Shown one piece after another: positions 20,790 to 58,312 of a stretch of 64,000 nucleotides of DNA; position 1 is the first letter of the stretch; each line of letters starts with the position of its first letter. The translations under genes and the position numbers were made by a program. Under the pieces are notes generated by a model. That model ran no database searches and was not told where the DNA came from. It saw only the letters and a program-made list of their open reading frames with translations. The stretch is from Escherichia phage vB_EcoM-fFiEco06: sequence record NC_054914.1; one strand, 5' to 3'.

Positions 20790-20821
20790 TAATAGTATCA
20801 CACTACTACCCTTCTGTAAAC
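20790..20821 (-). promoter_or_regulatory. T4-type early promoter
   Basis: Minus strand GTTTACAGAAGGGTAGTAGTGTGATACTATTACCCT. Confidence 0.55.
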
Positions 20822-24018: not shown

Positions 24019-24035
24019 TCTCTTCTCCTTGGCAG

Positions 24036-24076
24036 TTGACAAGATTACTATATCATAATCTTGTCAACTTGTAAAC
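24036..24076 (-). promoter_or_regulatory. Early promoter candidate within a 12-bp perfect inverted repeat
   Basis: GTTGACAAGATT...AATCTTGTCAAC palindrome; minus-strand GTTTACA upstream. Confidence 0.4.
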
Positions 24077-31673: not shown

Positions 31674-31706
31674 AATATACTATCACAATTCTAGGAGAAA
31701 GTAAAC
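31674..31706 (-). promoter_or_regulatory. T4-type early promoter upstream of denV
   Basis: Minus strand GTTTACTTTCTCCTAGAATTGTGATAGTATATT. Confidence 0.55.
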
Positions 31707-34483: not shown

Positions 34484-34502
34484 TCCTATTTACTCCAAGT
34501 AT

Positions 34503-34520
34503 AAGGGGCCGAAGCCCCTT
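34503..34520 (-). terminator. Intercistronic UUCG hairpin (no U-tract; RNA stability/processing element)
   Basis: AAGGGGC-UUCG-GCCCCUU between a stop codon and the next RBS. Confidence 0.4.
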
Positions 34521-34524
34521 ATCA

Positions 34525-36386: not shown

Positions 36387-36422
36387 CTTATTTCCTGTTT
36401 TAATTCGGGGTTTTAATATACT

Positions 36423-36430
36423 TATTTATA
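36423..36430 (-). promoter_or_regulatory. Late promoter TATAAATA upstream of the internal-protein-like gene
   Basis: Minus strand AGTATAAATAAG about 37 nt upstream of the ATG at 36386. Confidence 0.6.
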
Positions 36431-36460
36431 CTAAAAAGCCCCAACCTTTCGGTCGGGGCT
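36431..36460 (-). terminator. Rho-independent terminator (copy 2) ending the tRNA/stable-RNA transcription unit
   Basis: AGCCCCGACC-GAAAG-GUUGGGGCU followed by UUUUUAG; about 30 nt shared with copy 1. Confidence 0.7.
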
Positions 36461-36776
36461 AAGCCTTGCGGCAACCTTGTCGGGGTTCCACCTGCTAAGG
36501 CAAGTGTTTGTACGAAACGCCGGGATTCGAACCCGGTTATTAAGCAGTTGACGCTACTCAATATTTTTAAAAGGCCATATCTCGACCATATCCGAACGTT
36601 CCGTCAAAAACGCTACTCGGCTTACGGCAAAGATATTTCCTCGAATCGATAATTCGGTGCGCCGTTTCTGCTGTGATATAAGGGGACATTAACAAAACAT
36701 AAAGATTTATTAATACCAGTCCTTAAACAGGGAACATCAGTCCGACGACTTGCCGGTAGCGACCCGGCTTCTTGTC
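36461..36776 (-). ncRNA. Stable RNA region (T4 species 1/2, rnaC/rnaD-like)
   Basis: Non-coding stretch between tRNA-Arg and the terminator, containing a tRNA-like T-arm (GGGTTCGAATCCCGG); position as for the T4 stable RNAs. Confidence 0.4.
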
Positions 36777-36852
36777 TGGTCGAGGCAGTAGGGATCGAAC
36801 CTACGACCCAGGACTTAGAAGGTCCTTGCTCTTCCTTCTGAGCTATGCCTCG
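36777..36852 (-). tRNA. tRNA-Arg (anticodon UCU)
   Basis: Hand-folded cloverleaf: acceptor CGAGGCA/UGCCUCG, anticodon loop CUUCUAA, T-arm GGTTCGATCC, encoded CCA. Confidence 0.8.
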
Positions 36853-36856
36853 TATT

Positions 36857-36931
36857 TGGCGGACGTGATAGGATTCGAACCTATAACCAATCGCTTAACA
36901 GGCGATCGCTCTGCCATTGAGCTACACATCC
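36857..36931 (-). tRNA. tRNA-Asn (anticodon GUU)
   Basis: Acceptor GGATGTG/CACGTCC, anticodon stem ATCGC/GCGAT with loop CTGTTAA, T-loop TTCGAAT, CCA. Confidence 0.7.
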
Positions 36932-36935
36932 AAAT

Positions 36936-37022
36936 TGGTGGGGAGTGGTGGAGTCGAACCACCCGAGTCGCAATGACAATGAATTTACAGTCCACACCGC
37001 TACCTCTACGGGATAACTCCCC
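36936..37022 (-). tRNA. tRNA-Tyr (anticodon GUA), long variable arm
   Basis: 87 nt; acceptor GGGGAGT/ACTCCCC, anticodon loop CTGTAAA, T-arm GGTGGTTCGACTCCACC, CCA. Confidence 0.65.
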
Positions 37023-37031
37023 AAATTAATT

Positions 37032-37106
37032 TGGTGGCCCTGGGTGGAATTGAACCACCATCTGGCGATTATGAGTCGCTTGCTTGAACCTTCCAGCTAC
37101 AGGGCC
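37032..37106 (-). tRNA. tRNA-Ile/Met (anticodon CAU)
   Basis: Acceptor GGCCCTG/CAGGGCC, anticodon loop CTCATAA, CCA. Confidence 0.75.
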
Positions 37107-37107
37107 T

Positions 37108-37183
37108 TGGTGCTGATTGACGGAATCGAACCGCCGACCTTCTCATTACAAGTGAGTTGCTCTACCTACTGAGCTAAATCAGC
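37108..37183 (-). tRNA. tRNA-Thr (anticodon UGU)
   Basis: Acceptor GCTGATT/AATCAGC, anticodon loop CTTGTAA, T-arm GGTTCGATTCC, CCA. Confidence 0.8.
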
Positions 37184-37188
37184 AAAAC

Positions 37189-37278
37189 TGGCGGAGGCGA
37201 TAGGATTTGAACCTATGAGTCGCCGGAGCGACTGCCGGTTTTCAAGACCGGTGCATTAAACCACTCTGCCACGCCTCC
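37189..37278 (-). tRNA. tRNA-Ser (anticodon UGA), long variable arm
   Basis: 90 nt; acceptor GGAGGCG/CGCCTCC, anticodon loop CTTGAAA. Confidence 0.8.
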
Positions 37279-37280
37279 AG

Positions 37281-37354
37281 TCTCCGTGGCAGGATTTGAA
37301 CCTACGACATTCTGCTCCCAAAGCAGACGCTCTACCAAACTGAGCTACACGGAG
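37281..37354 (-). tRNA. tRNA-Pro (anticodon UGG), CCA not encoded
   Basis: Acceptor CTCCGTG/CACGGAG, anticodon loop TTTGGGA; separated from tRNA-Ser by 2 nt. Confidence 0.8.
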
Positions 37355-37364
37355 TAAATTAAAT

Positions 37365-37438
<74 letters not shown>

Positions 37439-37443
37439 AAATT

Positions 37444-37530
37444 TGGTGCGAGAAGTGGGACTCGAACCCACAAGGAAATCATTCCGCAGCATTTTAAGTG
37501 CTGTGCCTTTACCAATTTGGCCATTCTCGC
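37444..37530 (-). tRNA. tRNA-Leu (anticodon UAA), long variable arm
   Basis: 87 nt; matches T4 tRNA-Leu as recalled (GCGAGAATGGTCAAATTGG...). Confidence 0.85.
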
Positions 37531-37531
37531 G

Positions 37532-37604
37532 CTGGGAATAAAGGACTCGAACCTTTGCATCCTGGAATCAAAATCCAGTGCCTTACCAACTTGGCTAATT
37601 CCCA
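37532..37604 (-). tRNA. tRNA-Gln (anticodon UUG), CCA not encoded
   Basis: TGGGAATTAGCCAAGTTGGTAAGGCACTGGATTTTGATTCCAGG...; abuts tRNA-Leu with a 1-nt spacer. Confidence 0.85.
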
Positions 37605-37701
37605 ATTATTAACAAAGGCTCTTAAGCAAGAACCCTTGATGATAGAGGGTATTAATCAGTGCGATATGAGTTAATAATAACAAATAATTCTTAAAGCATA
37701 T

Positions 37702-37991: not shown

Positions 37992-38390
37992 TCAGCCTTC
38001 ATCAACAATAGTGTGAGTATTAGCATTTACGATTTGCCACCAATCAAAGCGATTAGAATCCATCGGTTTGTTTTCATTTTCTTTGATAATGTCACGGAGT
38101 TCATCTTCAGAGAATGCTTTAGCAATTAAATCGGTATACCCACCACGGGGATAATAATTATCACCTGCAAACAAAAGGAAATTTACCTTCCCGGAAGCAA
38201 CATATGCTTCCTTAGGATACTTGTTTCCTGCGTGGTCAACCACTTCAATATAACGGTAAGGAATATCGGTTCTTTCAACCCATTGCCATGCCGCCGCAGG
38301 GGAATCGAAAGCATCTACACCTAAACGATTATCTTCATCTTTAGACGGATTATTTTCGTAATCCGCATATACATAATATTCAACGTTCAT
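37992..38390 (-). CDS. Hypothetical protein
   Basis: 132 aa. Confidence 0.45.
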   Translation of the reverse strand: MNVEYYVYADYENNPSKDEDNRLGVDAFDSPAAAWQWVERTDIPYRYIEVVDHAGNKYPKEAYVASGKVNFLLFAGDNYYPRGGYTDLIAKAFSEDELRDIIKENENKPMDSNRFDWWQIVNANTHTIVDEG

Positions 38391-38575
38391 TATTCACCTT
38401 TAGAAATTTTATCCATAACAATAGCAATTAAACCAATTAAAAATGCTACTACAAGTGAAAAAACATTTTCTGCCGTAGTCAATAATCCGCATATAAATCC
38501 AACAAACATTGAAAAACTGAAAGCGGAAGCAGAAATTGCAATAGCAACATTTCGAATTAATTCACAACGTTTCAT
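38390..38575 (-). CDS. Small membrane protein
   Basis: 61 aa, two hydrophobic helices; own early promoter. Confidence 0.4.
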   Translation of the reverse strand: MKRCELIRNVAIAISASAFSFSMFVGFICGLLTTAENVFSLVVAFLIGLIAIVMDKISKGE

Positions 38576-38600
38576 TTTATTCTCCTCAGTAGTAGATAGG

Positions 38601-38633
38601 GTAATAGTATCACTACCCTATCTAAAAGTAAAC
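38601..38633 (-). promoter_or_regulatory. T4-type early promoter with 9-bp inverted repeat around the -10
   Basis: GATAGGGTA ... TACCCTATC flanks the -10 ATACTATTA. Confidence 0.55.
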
Positions 38634-38867
38634 TTATTTTTTACGAAAAATTGATTTATTTTCTGCTGCCCATTTTTCAATAACTGCAGCAGGACCAGTA
38701 ACAACAATTTTATCACCGTAATCTTCTGCGGCGAGTTGACCGAAATTATCTAATGCATCACGAAGAACTCCATGAGGCATTTCACCCATTTTATCTTTCT
38801 TGCCAGTGTAAATAAACTCAACTTTTACATCAGCAGTTTCAGCAATAAATTCTTGGTAAGTTTTCAT
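38634..38867 (-). CDS. Internal protein (ip-like) with canonical capsid-targeting sequence
   Basis: Start taken at the second Met: MKTYQEFIAE matches the T4 capsid-targeting sequence as recalled; own early promoter. Confidence 0.55.
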   Translation of the reverse strand: MKTYQEFIAETADVKVEFIYTGKKDKMGEMPHGVLRDALDNFGQLAAEDYGDKIVVTGPAAVIEKWAAENKSIFRKK

Positions 38868-38898
38868 TTTGATTTCCATTTGGTTTTGTTTTGATAGG

Positions 38899-38931
38899 GT
38901 AATAGTATCACAACTAAAACCCTATGTAAAC
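38899..38931 (-). promoter_or_regulatory. T4-type early promoter with inverted repeat around the -10
   Basis: ATAGGGT ... ACCCTAT flanks the -10; drives the ip-like gene at 38634-38867. Confidence 0.55.
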
Positions 38932-38943
38932 AACTTTGTGAAA

Positions 38944-39201
38944 TTATTTTAAATCTTCTAATCGTTTCTTCATCTTAGAGCCATTTTTAGCAATTTCTCC
39001 TGCATCGGAGCATAATGCTAAAAGTGCTTTAACTTTAGTTTGGTCTCCTTTAAAAGATGAAGGATCGACCGCAGCAGCAAGTTCTTTAATACGAGAGAAA
39101 AGACGCTCAGCTTCAGCTAAAGCCATTCCAAGCTTTACTTCCATACCGTGGGAAGATTCAGTGATAGTAGTTTTTGTAGCAAACTCTTTGAAAGTTTTCA
39201 T
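38944..39201 (-). CDS. Internal protein (ip-like) with capsid-targeting-like N-terminus
   Basis: 85 aa; MKTFKEFATKTTITE with an I-x-E cleavage-type motif; own early promoter. Confidence 0.5.
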   Translation of the reverse strand: MKTFKEFATKTTITESSHGMEVKLGMALAEAERLFSRIKELAAAVDPSSFKGDQTKVKALLALCSDAGEIAKNGSKMKKRLEDLK

Positions 39202-39229
39202 TTTTATTTTCCTAATTAATTTTGATGAG

Positions 39230-39262
39230 GTAATAGTATCACTACCTCATCAGTATGTAAAC
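39230..39262 (-). promoter_or_regulatory. T4-type early promoter with 9-bp inverted repeat around the -10
   Basis: GATGAGGTA ... TACCTCATC flanks the -10; compensatory changes relative to 38601-38633. Confidence 0.55.
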
Positions 39263-39274
39263 AACTTTGTGAAA

Positions 39275-39959
<685 letters not shown>

Positions 39960-51903: not shown

Positions 51904-51908
51904 ATTAA

Positions 51909-51933
51909 GGGAGCCCATGGGCTCCCTTTTTTC
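51909..51933 (+). terminator. Rho-independent terminator after gene 8
   Basis: GGGAGCCCAUGGGCUCCC followed by UUUUUUC on the plus strand. Confidence 0.7.
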
Positions 51934-55298: not shown

Positions 55299-56845
55299 GT
55301 AACAATACATATCAGCACGTATCAAATGAATCAAAATATGTTAAATTCGATCCTACTGGATCGAATTTTCCTGGCACTGTTACGACAGTACAGTCTGCAT
55401 TATCAAAAATAAGTAATATCGGCGTAAATGGTATTCCTGATGCAACTATGGAAGTTAAAGGAATAGCAATGATTGCGTCAGAGCAAGAGGTTTTAGATGG
55501 AACTAATAATTCTAAAATCGTTACACCAGCTACATTAGCAACAAGATTATTGTATCCAAATGCTACTGAAACTAAATATGGTTTAACGCGTTATTCAACA
55601 AATGAAGAAACATTAAAAGGCTCAGATAATAATTCATCAATAACACCACAAAAACTGAAATACCACACTGACGATGTGTTCAAAAATAGATATTCGTCTG
55701 AGTCATCAAACGGGGTTATTAAAATATCATCTACACCTGCAGCTTTGGCTGGAGTTGATGATACTACTGCGATGACTCCGCTAAAAACCCAAAAACTTGC
55801 AATAAAATTAATTTCGCAAATAGCTCCTTCAGAAGACACTGCAACAGAATCGGTGAGAGGAGTAGTTCAATTATCTACTGTTGCACAAATTCGTCAAGGA
55901 ACTCTCCGCGAAGGATATGCAATTTCCCCGTATACCTTTATGAATTCTGTTGCAACACATGAATATAAGGGTGTTATACGCCTAGGAACGCAGACTGAAA
56001 TTAATAATAATTTGGGTGGTGTTGCAGTAACAGGTGAAACACTAAATGGTCGAGGAGCTACCGGTTCTATGCGTGGAGTAGTTAAATTAACGACGCAAGC
56101 CGGTATTGCCCCTGAAGGTGATAGCTCTGGAGCATTAGCATGGAACGCAGATGTAATTAATACTCGTGGTGGACAAACTATTAATGGTTCTTTAAATTTA
56201 GACCATCTTACAGCAAATGGAATTTGGTCACGCGGTGGAATGTGGAAAAATGGCGATCAACCTGTTGCCACTGAAAGATATGCGTCCGAACGAGTTCCGG
56301 TTGGAACTATTATGATGTTTGCGGGTGATTCAGCACCTCCAGGTTGGATTATGTGTCATGGTGGAACCGTGTCAGGTGACCAATTTCCTGATTATAGAAA
56401 CGTAGTTGGAACAAGATTTGGTGGCGATTGGAATAATCCTGGCGTTCCTGATATGCGGGGTCTTTTCGTCAGAGGAGCCGGCACAGGCGGTCATATTTTA
56501 AATCAACGTGGACAAGATGGCTATGGAAAGGATAGACTGGGCGTAGGATGTGACGGAATGCATGTTGGTGGTGTTCAGGCACAACAAATGTCATACCATA
56601 AACATGCTGGTGGTTGGGGTGAATATAACAGAAGTGAAGGCCCATTTGGCGCGTCAGTTTATCAAGGATATCTTGGAACTAGAAAATATTCCGACTGGGA
56701 TAATGCTTCATACTTCACTAATGATGGATTTGAATTAGGTGGACCGAGAGATGCTCATGGTACACTTAATCGTGAAGGATTAATTGGTTATGAAACTAGA
56801 CCATGGAATATATCATTAAACTATATTATTAAAGTTCATTACTAA
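55295..56845 (+). CDS. 12: Short tail fibre gp12
   Basis: 516 aa; synteny. Confidence 0.88.
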
Positions 56846-56854
56846 GGATTACAA

Positions 56855-58312
56855 ATGATTGAATTAAAAGAGTTACCTTTTGTTGATAGCGTTCCTGACG
56901 AAGGTCAGGAACGTATTTCATGGATTAAAAATGGTGAAGAAATATTAGGAGCTAGTACTAAGTATGGAAATGATGGATCAATGAATAGACCAATTGTTTC
57001 CGTGTTTAAAAACGTCGAAGTTCTTGATGAAAATGTGGGAATTCTTAAAACTGCCATTGAAACATCACAGAAAGATATTAAAACAATTCAAGGAGTTTTA
57101 GATGTATCAGGAGATATAGAAGCACTATCGCAGATCAGTGTTAATAAAAATGACATATCGAATTTAAAGACACTTACCAGTGAACACACTGATATATTAA
57201 CTGGAACTAATAATACAGTTGACAAAATTATTGCTGATATAGGTCCATTTAATGATGAAGAAAACTCTGTTTATAGAACAATTAGAAATGATTTATTGTG
57301 GATTAAACAGGAATTAGGACAATATTCTGGCCAAGACATTAACGGTCTTCCTGTTGTTGGTAATGCTAGCACAGGAATGAAACACAGAATAATAACAAAT
57401 AGTACATTATTATCTTCACAGGGCATTCGTTTAAGCGAATTAGAAAATAAATTTACTGAATCTGACGTAGGATCATTAACTGTTGAAGTTGGTAAATTAC
57501 GTGATGAACTTGGTAATAAACCAGTAGATTTTGGGCCAAATATTTATAATAGATTAAACACCATAGATGATAAACAAACTTTAATAATTTCTGATATAGC
57601 AGAAATTAAATCTTCTATTGGATACCCAGAAAATGTTTCTATAATAACAGAAATTAATAATAACAAAAGTAGCATTGAAGCTATTAATAATGAATTAAAT
57701 CAGAGTGAAGGTGTTAAACAGCGCTTAACGGCTATTGAAACTTCTATAGGTTCAGATGATATTCCTTCTAGTATTAAAGGAAAAATTAAAAATCACACAA
57801 CTTCTATTGAGTCTTTAAACGGAATTGTTGGTGAAAACACTTCGTCTGGTTTAAGAGCGAATGTTTCGTGGTTAAATCAAATTGTTGGAACTGACTCCAG
57901 CGGAGGACAACCGTCTCCTTCTGGATCTCTATTAAATAAAGTTTCAGTGCTTGAAGGAGAAGTTTCAGTTTTAAACAATAATGTTCAAAATATACAAGTT
58001 GAAATAGGAAATAATAGAACAGGAATTAAAGGTCAAGTTATTGAACTTACTTCACTTATAAATGGAAATAATCCTGACGGATCAACTGTTGAAGAACGAG
58101 GATTAACTAATTCTATAAAAACGAATGAAACCAACATTGCGGCAGTCACACATGAAGTAAATACAGCTAAAGACAATATATCCTCTTTACAGAGCAGCGT
58201 TCAAGCTCTACAAGAAGCAGGTTATATTCCTGAAGCTCCAAAAGATGGCCAAGCTTACGTTCGTAAAGACGGCGAATGGGTACTACTTTCTACCTTTTTA
58301 TCACCAGCATAA
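56855..58312 (+). CDS. wac: Fibritin (whisker antigen control)
   Basis: 485 aa coiled coil ending in foldon [27 protein letters not shown]. Confidence 0.9.

What the first reader, a model, noticed from the sequence alone, without database searches (positions are those of the whole stretch)
38581..39275. Two tandem ip-like genes with capsid-targeting N-termini, each behind its own early promoter carrying a covarying inverted repeat
ORF 38634..38867 starts with the canonical MKTYQEFIAE and ORF 38944..39201 with MKTFKEFATKTTITE. Each has its own GTTTAC/-10 early promoter. In these promoters the -10 is embedded in an inverted repeat whose arms differ between copies but stay complementary (GATAGGGTA/TACCCTATC at 38601-38633 versus GATGAGGTA/TACCTCATC at 39230-39262), which argues for selection on the stem. 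The ipI locus is known to be hypervariable among T-even phages and IPI* blocks GmrSD-type restriction, so these are candidates for injected anti-defence proteins of unknown specificity.
Basis: partly seen in the sequence, partly recalled or inferred. Interest (0 to 1): 0.65.

Follow-up and report, generated by a model that had tools for sequence, protein, structure and literature searches.

The report
Known T-even internal-protein genes with promoter hairpins
This stretch holds two already-named "internal protein" genes (ip5, ip6) of a T4-like phage. Each follows an early promoter whose -10 box lies in the loop of a hairpin, an arrangement already published as "PeSL-like" cassettes, so the finding is real but ordinary.

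Summary
The window is 100% identical to Escherichia phage vB_EcoM-fHoEco02, a Tequatrovirus. There the two ORFs, both on the minus strand, are annotated ip6 (38634-38867) and ip5 (38944-39201). They replace T4 ipI between 57B and trna.4. They share only the capsid-targeting leader with T4 IPI/IPII and belong to PHROG internal-protein families. Ip5 was named in 1994 (RB70, T2).

The inverted repeats are real and compensated. However, there are three promoter cassettes, not two. The repeat at 38593-38624 belongs to the trna.4 promoter, not to ip6. The ip6 promoter has a re-phased 7-bp stem.

In about 3 Mb of T4-like contigs, roughly 6-9% of GTTTAC-N18 early promoters carry a 9-13 bp repeat centred on the -10. 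The arm sequences are unrelated between promoters and the phase is fixed. Orthologous promoters show compensatory changes. Interior mismatches are mostly G·T on the sense strand, which suggests selection acts on the RNA.

Early promoters with stem-loops overlapping the -10 were published as PeSLs (Arbiol 2010; Comeau 2014). The elements at the IP loci were called PeSL-like (Repoila 1994).

Verdict: already known. Ip5 and Ip6 targets remain untested. GmrSD-type inhibition is a reasonable guess.

The parts
39275..39733 (-). Gene 57B (annotated Acb1 in some records). It is the conserved left flank of the variable IP locus. Its stop codon lies 12 nt before the -35 of the ip5 promoter.
   Evidence: ORF list. 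Annotation of the identical record. T4 synteny. 'anti-CBASS protein Acb1' label in hit H20.
39223..39262 (-). Cassette A, the ip5 early promoter with hairpin. -35 GTTTAC at 39257-39262. 5' arm TGATGAGGTA at 39243-39252. Loop GTGATACTAT at 39233-39242, of which the -10 TACTAT is 39233-39238. 3' arm TACCTCATCA at 39223-39232. It is identical to the T4 ipI promoter.
   Evidence: RNA fold -17.4 kcal/mol, z = -4.0.
39208..39213 (-). Shine-Dalgarno sequence AGGAAA of ip5. It lies 9 nt downstream of the hairpin and is not sequestered by it.
   Evidence: Sequence. Fold.
38944..39201 (-). ip5, 85 aa. The capsid-targeting leader MKTFKEFATKTTITE spans 39157-39201 and ends in an I-x-E protease motif. The mature part is predicted to be a two-helix hairpin.
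   Evidence: Model pLDDT 72. No informative fold match.
38894..38931 (-). Cassette B, the ip6 early promoter. -35 at 38926-38931 and -10 TACTAT at 38902-38907. It has a re-phased 7-bp stem: ATAGGGT (38919-38925) pairing with ACCCTAT (38894-38900), with an 18-nt loop. Its 5' half equals T4's ipI-trna.4 cassette.
   Evidence: RNA fold -18.4 kcal/mol, z = -3.4. A relative (L045) keeps this pairing through ATGGGGT/ACCTCAT: read by eye from the sequence printed, one pair changes on both sides and one becomes G·T.
38634..38867 (-). ip6, 77 aa. The capsid-targeting leader MKTYQEFIAE spans 38838-38867. The mature part is predicted to be a small beta-alpha-beta-beta-alpha-beta domain.
   Evidence: Model pLDDT 82. 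Only generic ferredoxin-like fold matches, E >= 0.07.
38593..38633 (-). Cassette C, the trna.4 early promoter with hairpin. -35 at 38628-38633, directly abutting the ip6 stop codon. 5' arm TAGATAGGGTA at 38614-38624. -10 at 38604-38609. 3' arm TACCCTATCTA at 38593-38603.
   Evidence: RNA fold -19.8 kcal/mol, z = -3.8. Covariation among orthologues.
38390..38575 (-). trna.4, a 61-aa predicted membrane protein. It is the conserved right flank of the variable locus and the gene actually driven by cassette C.
24034..24076 (-). An independent example of the same architecture. This is the early promoter of the mobD.2 homologue, with a 13-14 bp perfect repeat (AGTTGACAAGATT/AATCTTGTCAACT) around the -10 TATAGT.
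   Evidence: RNA fold -22.8 kcal/mol, z = -6.4. T4 has the same element at 57990.

Best explanation
The locus is the ipI-type hypervariable internal-protein locus of a T4-like phage. It carries two known cassette genes, ip5 and ip6, in place of T4 ipI.

Each gene is a self-contained module. It has an A/T-rich UP region, a T4-type early promoter (GTTTAC, 18 nt, TGnTACTAT), a Shine-Dalgarno sequence and an ORF. The ORF's first 10-15 codons encode the capsid-targeting sequence. That leader takes the protein into the prohead and is then removed by the prohead protease after I-x-E. The mature 67-70 aa proteins are expected to be injected with the DNA and to neutralise a host defence. By analogy with Ip1-3, the target is most likely a particular GmrSD-type type IV restriction enzyme. 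This role is inferred, not shown.

The inverted repeat uses the only two unconstrained parts of the promoter as its arms: the spacer (about -26 to -17) and the discriminator/start region (about -6 to +4). The extended -10 and the -10 form the loop.

A transcript started at the promoter begins inside the 3' arm, so it lacks the hairpin. A transcript reading through from the upstream gene contains a stable hairpin of -17 to -23 kcal/mol.

I propose the hairpin marks the 3' boundary of the upstream cistron. It would act as an attenuator or as a barrier to 3' exonucleases. This would insulate each small gene as its own expression unit. The conserved flanks and loop also provide the homology for recombinational swapping of ip cassettes.

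This is the PeSL / PeSL-like logic of Arbiol 2010 and Repoila 1994.
For: Identity of the genes:
- 1501/1501 identity to MG781191, where ip5 and ip6 are annotated.
- Full-length PHROG matches.
- Source names Ip5 and Ip6.
- Synteny with T4 57B-ipI-trna.4.
- Similarity to T4 IPs is limited to the capsid-targeting leader.

The stem is under selection:
- 24 of 265 distinct promoters have at least 9 of 10 positions paired, against 1.95 in chimeras that pair each 5' half with another promoter's 3' half.
- The signal exists only at one dyad phase: 16-18 promoters at shift 0, against 0-3 at every other shift.
- In an unselected set of 92 promoters the covariation score is 0.230, against 0.179 +/- 0.012 in shuffles (0 of 500 reach it) and 0.13-0.17 with the partner slid.
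- At least 10 unrelated arm sequences share the same geometry.
- Orthologous trna.4 promoters carry GGGTA/TACCC, GGGTT/AACCC and GGGCT/AGCCC.

Selection at the RNA level, on the sense strand:
- Interior mismatches are G·T 11 times and A·C or C·A twice (binomial p = 0.011).
- By my own comparison of close variants printed, three of four such events that can be polarised are A-to-G changes in the 5' arm, outside the open-complex bubble.
- The RNA folds have z-scores of -3.4 to -6.4.

Recombination role:
- The window's cassettes are mosaics of T4 cassettes.
- Hybrid promoters in relatives join one cassette's 5' arm to another's 3' arm across the loop.

Literature:
- PeSL stem-loops 'overlapping the -10 box', with terminator activity shown for one RB49/phi1 element; the T-even IP-locus elements are called analogues (PMC2839356).
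- PeSLs in PST/T4 (PMC4122927).
- Ip1-3 each inhibit a distinct GmrSD (PMC12373910).
Against: - No U-tract follows any of these hairpins, and the terminator scan finds none there. Classical intrinsic termination is therefore unlikely.
- No 3'-end mapping data for T-even phages were found.
- The repeat is dispensable. About 90% of early promoters lack it. Some orthologues have lost it, as in the MAKFN group.
- The G·T asymmetry rests on 13 events that are not all independent. A strand-biased mutation process could contribute to it.
- Terminator activity was shown only for a GC-rich RB49/phi1 stem, not for these AT-rich T-even stems.
- Packaging, processing and any anti-defence activity of Ip5 and Ip6 are inferred only. 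Their predicted folds gave no functional lead.
Confidence: 0.7

Rival explanations
1. The repeat acts in the DNA. It would extrude as a cruciform or hairpin that presents the -10 as single strand or senses supercoiling, as in N4 virion-RNAP hairpin promoters. Alternatively it would form a structure-specific recombination hot spot, for example for endonuclease VII.
For: - The dyad axis is fixed precisely at -12/-11 relative to the promoter.
- Crossovers map to the loop in hybrid cassettes.
- In RB49 mini-circles the crossover was localised within the loop (PMC2839356).
Against: - The fixed phase is also explained simply by packing. The arms can only occupy the unconstrained spacer and the start region.
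- Interior mismatches are G·T on the sense strand 11 times against 2 for A·C or C·A. That matters for RNA, not for a DNA cruciform, where both strands must pair.
- Other stem phases also occur: the T4 ipII and ipIII promoters and the GGTCTAT/ATAGACC class.
Confidence: 0.15
2. Complementarity is maintained without selection. It would arise by templated (quasipalindrome) strand-switch correction or by gene conversion between cassettes. The apparent covariation would then be a mutational by-product.
For: Quasipalindrome-templated mutation was first described in T4 (my own knowledge: Ripley 1982). The cassettes clearly recombine.
Against: - Templated correction yields perfect Watson-Crick pairs, not the observed excess of G·T.
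- It cannot create at least 10 unrelated arm sequences that all sit in the same phase around the -10.
- It does not explain the bimodal distribution of arm lengths: 191 promoters have at most 5 bp and 18 have 6-13 bp.
Confidence: 0.1
3. The repeat is an operator for a dimeric phage or host DNA-binding protein that shuts these early promoters off.
For: A palindrome overlapping the -10 is the classical geometry of an operator.
Against: The arm sequences are unrelated between promoters: AGTTGACAAGATT, TGATGAGGTA, GTGTAGGAGC, TGGTAGAAGAC, CCGGAAGT and others. No single sequence-specific protein could read them all. Only complementarity is conserved.
Confidence: 0.03

Closest known systems
T-even internal proteins Ip5 and Ip6 (Repoila et al. 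1994, EMBO J 13:4181; annotated in T2, RB70, vB_EcoM-fHoEco02 and many others)
   Same: These are the same genes. The window is 100% identical to the record that annotates ip5 and ip6. Ip5 is 99% identical to T2 Ip5 and 92% to RB70 Ip5. Both give full-length PHROG matches.
   Different: Nothing differs at the sequence level. Their function is still uncharacterised in the literature I could search.
T4 IPI / IPI* (Pfam PF11634), inhibitor of GmrSD from E. coli CT596
   Same: Same chromosomal slot between 57B and trna.4. An identical promoter/hairpin cassette lies upstream. The capsid-targeting leader is of the same type: MKTFKEF...TITE.
   Different: The mature domains are unrelated. Ip5 and Ip6 do not hit PF11634, whereas T4 IPI scores 7e-54 against it. 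BLASTP similarity stops at residue 22. The predicted folds are a helical hairpin and a small alpha/beta domain.
PeSL (promoter-early stem-loop) cassettes of RB49/phi1, PST/T4 and nt-1/KVP40 (Arbiol 2010, PMC2839356; Comeau 2014, PMC4122927)
   Same: A composite of an A/T-rich region, an early promoter, a stem-loop, a Shine-Dalgarno sequence and a start codon. It lies between small co-oriented genes in hyperplastic regions. The stem-loop commonly lies 'between the -35 and -10 or overlapping the -10'. G-T pairs are noted. The cassettes coincide with indel and replacement junctions.
   Different: Arbiol et al. themselves call the T-even IP-locus elements analogues, not homologues. They are built on the T4-type GTTTAC promoter and have AT-rich stems without polyG/polyC. 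Terminator activity has been shown only for an RB49/phi1 element. The fixed -12/-11 dyad phase, the frequency of about 6-9% and the sense-strand G·T bias are quantified here. I did not find them in the text I could read.
T4 hairpins that distinguish read-through from internally initiated transcripts (genes e, soc, 49, I-TevI). From my own knowledge: McPheeters 1986; Gott 1988.
   Same: A promoter lies inside a hairpin-forming region. Only the read-through RNA contains the full hairpin.
   Different: In those cases the hairpin sequesters the Shine-Dalgarno sequence and start codon, and the internal promoter is a late one. Here the Shine-Dalgarno sequence lies 4-12 nt outside the stem and the promoter is an early one.

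Membership tests
T-even internal (Ip) proteins | N-terminal capsid-targeting sequence of the type MKT(Y/F)(Q/K)EF... | tested here: met
   ip6 starts MKTYQEFIAE, which is 10/11 identical to T4 IPII. ip5 starts MKTFKEFATKTTITE, which aligns with the T4 IPI leader.
T-even internal (Ip) proteins | Prohead-protease (gp21) cleavage motif (L/I)-x-E at the end of the leader | tested here: met
   IAE at residues 8-10 of ip6 and ITE at residues 13-15 of ip5. The same ITE ends the 19-residue T4 IPI leader. The motif definition comes from my own knowledge. Actual cleavage was not tested.
T-even internal (Ip) proteins | Encoded in one of the two variable IP loci (57B-trna.4 or e-denV) | tested here: met
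   The genes lie between 57B and trna.4, exactly where T4 has ipI.
T-even internal (Ip) proteins | Sequence membership in a catalogued Ip family | tested here: met
   phrog_8111 at 1.2e-52 and phrog_3499 at 1.2e-49, both full length. Sources name them Ip5 and Ip6.
T-even internal (Ip) proteins | Packaged in the head, processed, and injected with the DNA | not testable with these tools
   Needs virion mass spectrometry or labelled-protein injection assays.
IPI* nuclease-inhibitor family (Pfam PF11634) | Mature domain homologous to IPI* | tested here: not met
   Neither ORF hits PF11634 at E <= 0.1, whereas the T4 IPI control scores 7.3e-54.
GmrSD / type IV restriction inhibitors (functional class of Ip1-3) | Restores plating on a host that carries a specific GmrSD | not testable with these tools
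   There is only the precedent of Ip1, Ip2 and Ip3 (PMC12373910).
PeSL / PeSL-like cassette | Early promoter with an A/T-rich upstream region, followed by a Shine-Dalgarno sequence and the start codon of a small gene | tested here: met
   Three cassettes with GTTTAC-N18-TGnTACTAT, each followed by a Shine-Dalgarno sequence and an ATG.
PeSL / PeSL-like cassette | Stable stem-loop within or adjacent to the promoter | tested here: met
   Perfect stems of 10-11 bp in cassettes A and C and 7 bp in cassette B. Folding energies -17.4 to -19.8 kcal/mol, with 0 of 200 shuffles folding as well.
PeSL / PeSL-like cassette | Repeated copies flank variable ORFs and coincide with mosaic junctions | tested here: met
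   Cassettes flank ip5 and ip6. They align as mosaics of the two T4 cassettes. Hybrid arms occur in relatives. At least 12 different leader-bearing ORF types sit behind such promoters.
PeSL / PeSL-like cassette | The stem-loop attenuates or terminates upstream transcription | not testable with these tools
   Shown only for phi1 PeSL211/210. Here no U-tract follows the stem.
PeSL sensu stricto (RB49/phi1 type) | Sigma-70 consensus TTGACA/TATAAT and polyG/polyC stems | tested here: not met
   The -35 is GTTTAC and the stems are AT-rich with mixed sequence. This agrees with Arbiol's 'analogs, not homologs'.
Rho-independent terminator | GC-rich stem immediately followed by a U-tract | tested here: not met
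   No terminator-like site was called at any of the three cassettes. The tails are A-rich: AAAAUUAAUU, CUACUGAGG, CAAAACAAAA.

The most novel reading that the evidence does not exclude
The hairpin centred on the -10 may be more than an incidental overlap of a terminator-like stem with a promoter. It may be a distinct, precisely phased class of T-even early promoter, with its dyad at -12/-11 and present in about 6-9% of GTTTAC-N18 promoters. Selection would act on the sense RNA. The cell or phage would then treat read-through transcripts (hairpin present) differently from self-initiated transcripts (hairpin absent), for example through processing or 3'-end stabilisation that makes every small anti-defence gene an autonomous unit. 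Separately, Ip5 and Ip6 may each disarm a still unidentified variant of GmrSD or another modification-dependent defence.
Probability: 0.3. Interest if true: 0.4.

Novelty: already known. Interest (0 to 1): 0.15.

Why it matters
Internal proteins are injected with the DNA and act against host defences at the very start of infection. Since 2025 all three T4 Ips are known to block different GmrSD enzymes. Every further Ip family, including Ip5 and Ip6 here, is therefore a ready candidate for a matching host defence.

The promoter/hairpin cassette is the unit that lets these genes be swapped between phages. Showing that its stem is conserved by compensatory change, apparently at the RNA level, supports the published PeSL idea for the T-even group. 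That idea still lacks experimental tests in T-even phages.

None of this changes current understanding. It only makes two simple experiments more clearly worthwhile.

Tried and rejected
- Pfam search: no family for either protein. They are not IPI_T4.
- Deep homology search: only 11 (Ip6) and 5 (Ip5) clusters, all from T4-like phages. No remote relatives.
- AlphaFold2 models followed by Foldseek against the PDB. Ip6 gives only generic ferredoxin-like matches (best E 0.07). Ip5 gives generic helical hairpins (best E 0.66). No functional lead.
- Rfam search of 38300-39400: only a chance snoRNA hit at E 0.35.
- Intrinsic-terminator reading: rejected, because there is no U-tract.
- Operator for a dimeric protein: rejected, because the arms are unrelated in sequence.
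- A suspected second ip locus at the promoter near 20821, whose downstream ORF contains the internal sequence MKT: rejected. The ORF is a 328-aa protein, not an Ip.
- Repoila 1994 could not be read; it is not held. No supplementary files are held for Comeau 2014. I therefore could not check whether the exact -10-in-loop geometry was drawn for the T-even IP loci.
- A literature search for T4 transcript 3'-end maps found nothing usable.
- The third IMG/VR scan (GTTTAC-N15-TGATATAGT) mostly returned contigs that do not look like T4-type phage contigs, judging by their names and lengths. It added little.
Full report
**What the sequence is**

Window 38300-39800 is 100% identical (1501/1501) to Escherichia phage vB_EcoM-fHoEco02 (MG781191), a Tequatrovirus. 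It is at least 99% identical to about 90 other records, and 189 of the 777 matching records hold at least 80% of the stretch.

All genes here are on the minus strand. The record annotates, in transcription order: 57A, 57B (window 39275-39733), ip5 (38944-39201), ip6 (38634-38867), trna.4 (38390-38575), trna.3, trna.2, and then a ten-tRNA cluster. T4 has the same order with a single gene, ipI, between 57B and trna.4. The finding therefore lies in the classical ipI-type variable locus.

**The proteins**

- ip6 begins MKTYQEFIAE. This is 10/11 identical to the start of T4 IPII and IPIII. Similarity stops there.
- ip5 begins MKTFKEFATKTTITE. This aligns with the T4 IPI leader MKTFKEFTSTTTPVSTITE. 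Similarity stops at residue 22.
- Both leaders end in I-x-E, the motif after which the prohead protease cuts. The motif definition comes from my own knowledge. The role of the capsid-targeting sequence is described in PMC3012670.
- Neither protein hits Pfam IPI_T4, while the T4 IPI control scores 7e-54.
- Both match PHROG internal-protein families over their whole length: phrog_8111 at 1.2e-52 and phrog_3499 at 1.2e-49.
- In the 5.8-billion-protein collection the families are small and confined to T4-like phages. Sources name them 'Ip6 putative internal head protein', 'Ip5 internal head protein' (phage T2) and 'Ip5' (RB70, Q38378). The RB70 entry fits the 1994 description of the IP loci by Repoila et al., a paper I could not read.
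- The AlphaFold models show a small beta-alpha-beta-beta-alpha-beta domain for Ip6 (pLDDT 82) and a two-helix hairpin for Ip5 (pLDDT 72). Neither has an informative PDB neighbour.
- A 2025 study showed that T4 Ip1, Ip2 and Ip3 each inhibit a different GmrSD enzyme. It notes that at least ten further Ips are uncharacterised (PMC12373910).

**The promoters: the observation corrected**

A scan for GTTTAC-N18-TAnnnT finds three promoters in the locus, not two.

- **Cassette A** (-35 at 39257-39262) drives ip5. Its arms are TGATGAGGTA/TACCTCATCA around the loop GTGATACTAT.
- **Cassette B** (-35 at 38926-38931) drives ip6. It has only a 7-bp stem, ATAGGGT/ACCCTAT, with the 5' arm moved next to the -35 and an 18-nt loop.
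- **Cassette C** (-35 at 38628-38633, abutting the ip6 stop codon) drives trna.4. Its arms are TAGATAGGGTA/TACCCTATCTA.

The two compensated differences are real: AG/CT in one cassette against GA/TC in the other.

Cassette A is identical to the T4 ipI promoter. The 5' half of cassette B equals the T4 ipI-trna.4 cassette. The 3' half of cassette C equals the T4 trna.4 leader. The locus is therefore a mosaic whose joints lie inside the cassettes.

**Is the repeat more than chance?**

In the whole window there are 15 perfect hairpins with a stem of at least 9 bp, against about 9 in Markov simulations. Three of them are centred on the -10 of an early promoter. The third is the mobD.2 promoter at 24034-24076, with 13-14 bp arms of unrelated sequence.

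I then sampled T4-like contigs from IMG/VR with patterns that do not require any repeat.

- Among 209 distinct promoters the perfect arm length around the -10 is bimodal: 191 have at most 5 bp and 18 have 6-13 bp.
- Scoring ten positions, 24 of 265 promoters have at least 9 paired. Chimeras that join each 5' half to another promoter's 3' half give 1.95.
- The signal appears at only one dyad position, between -12 and -11. There, 16 of 212 and then 18 of 546 promoters have at least 9 of 10 paired, against 0-3 at any other shift.
- On an unselected, gapless alignment of 92 promoters the covariation score is 0.230. Shuffles give 0.179 +/- 0.012 (0 of 500 reach the observed value), and sliding the partner gives 0.13-0.17.
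- The arms are unrelated between promoters: AGTTGACAAGATT, ACGTTCTGTAGA, TGGTGTAAGAT, TGGTAGAAGAC, GTGTAGGAGC, TGGTAGGAGC, CCGGAAGT and others.
- Orthologous trna.4 promoters carry GGGTA/TACCC, GGGTT/AACCC or GGGCT/AGCCC.
- Other stem phases also exist. These include the T4 ipII promoter (AGAATTGTGA/TCACAATTCT), the ipIII promoter (AATTGTGA/TCACAATT), and a GGTCTAT/ATAGACC class that covaries with AGGCTAT/ATAGCCT.
- The repeat is dispensable. About 90% of promoters lack it, and some orthologues have lost it.

**At what level does it act?**

Within well-formed stems the interior mismatches are G·T on the sense strand 11 times, and A·C or C·A twice (binomial p = 0.011). Transitions should give both kinds equally. 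By my own comparison of close variants, three of four events that can be polarised are A-to-G changes in the 5' arm.

This favours pairing in the sense RNA. The sample is small.

As RNA the four window elements fold at -17.4 to -22.8 kcal/mol, with z-scores of -3.4 to -6.4. With the start site about 7 nt after the -10 (an inference), the promoter's own transcript starts inside the 3' arm. Only read-through RNA from the upstream gene carries the hairpin.

The Shine-Dalgarno sequence lies 4-12 nt outside the stem, so translational masking is unlikely. No U-tract follows, and no terminator-like site is called.

The most economical reading is as follows. The hairpin is a boundary element for the upstream cistron, either an attenuator or a 3'-exonuclease barrier. 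It is squeezed into the only unconstrained parts of a promoter that itself overlaps the upstream stop codon. The invariant loop and flanks serve as recombination homology. Hybrid cassettes that join one 5' arm to another 3' arm show crossovers in the loop.

**Comparison with what is known**

Arbiol et al. 2010 defined PeSLs as an early promoter plus a stem-loop. [quoted passage not shown] They show G-T pairs, and they measured terminator-like activity for one element.

They also say that Repoila et al. 1994 had seen 'PeSL-like sequences' at the two T-even IP loci. They describe these as analogues built on T4 early promoters, with AT-rich stems of variable size. Comeau et al. 2014 extended PeSLs to PST/T4.

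The genes, the cassette architecture, its proposed dual function and its role in shuffling ip genes are therefore all published. What I add is quantification for the T-even type: the frequency, the fixed phase, the compensatory changes among orthologues and the G·T bias. I could not read Repoila 1994 or see the figures, so I cannot say how much of that was already shown.

**Verdict**

The feature is already known. Interest is low.

The remaining open points are experimental:
- what the T-even stem does to read-through RNA;
- which defences Ip5 and Ip6 neutralise.

Noticed in passing
window 24034-24076 (minus strand); T4 57948-57990: The early promoter of the 34-aa mobD.2 homologue has the longest repeat of this kind, 13-14 bp perfect (AGTTGACAAGATT/AATCTTGTCAACT) around the -10 TATAGT. 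It is conserved in T4. One relative (L109) carries a single G·T.
   Followed up: partly
window 39275-39733: Gene 57B, immediately upstream of the ip cassettes, is labelled 'anti-CBASS protein Acb1' in one closely related record (H20), and 'RNA ligase' or 'hypothetical' in others. The ip locus therefore sits next to another anti-defence gene.
   Followed up: no
window about 36400-37610 versus T4 70908-72530: The tRNA cluster differs from T4. The identical record annotates ten tRNAs here: Arg, Asn, Tyr, Met, Thr, Ser, Pro, Gly, Leu, Gln. No segB homing endonuclease and no rnaC/rnaD are annotated. T4 has eight tRNAs plus segB, rnaC and rnaD.
   Followed up: no
T4 (L114) ipII and ipIII promoters; window promoter with -35 at 31706: The promoters of the other IP locus also enclose their -10 in a repeat, but in a different phase that uses the extended -10 TGTGA as part of the 5' arm. 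T4 ipII has AGAATTGTGA/TCACAATTCT and T4 ipIII has AATTGTGA/TCACAATT. The window element is weakened to TGTGA/TCACA.
   Followed up: partly
loci L045, L077 (IMG/VR T4-like contigs): Hybrid cassettes join the trna.4-type 5' arm (AATAGGGTA) to the ipI-type 3' arm (TACCTCAT), which gives imperfect stems. They look like recombination products with the crossover inside the conserved loop GTGATACTAT.
   Followed up: partly
relatives in the list, e.g. GTTTACAACGGTCTATGGTAGTGATACTATAGACCTATC: A further phase class has a 3' arm that overlaps the last two bases of the -10: GGTCTAT/ATAGACC, covarying with AGGCTAT/ATAGCCT. It accounts for the secondary peak at shift -6 in the phase scan.
   Followed up: partly
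window 34501-34522, 51907-51928, 55343-55368, 56890-56913: Perfect 9-11 bp hairpins with 4-nt loops. An example is AAGGGAGCC-catg-GGCTCCCTT followed by TTTTCTTT, which looks like a true intrinsic terminator. They are unrelated to the promoter hairpins.
   Followed up: no
window 38868-38879: An in-frame ATG four codons upstream of the ip6 start (MEIK-MKTYQ...) overlaps the Shine-Dalgarno-like GGAAA. Some database entries (81-83 aa forms, P0001 and P0007) use such extended starts. The annotated MKTYQ start fits the leader consensus better.
   Followed up: partly
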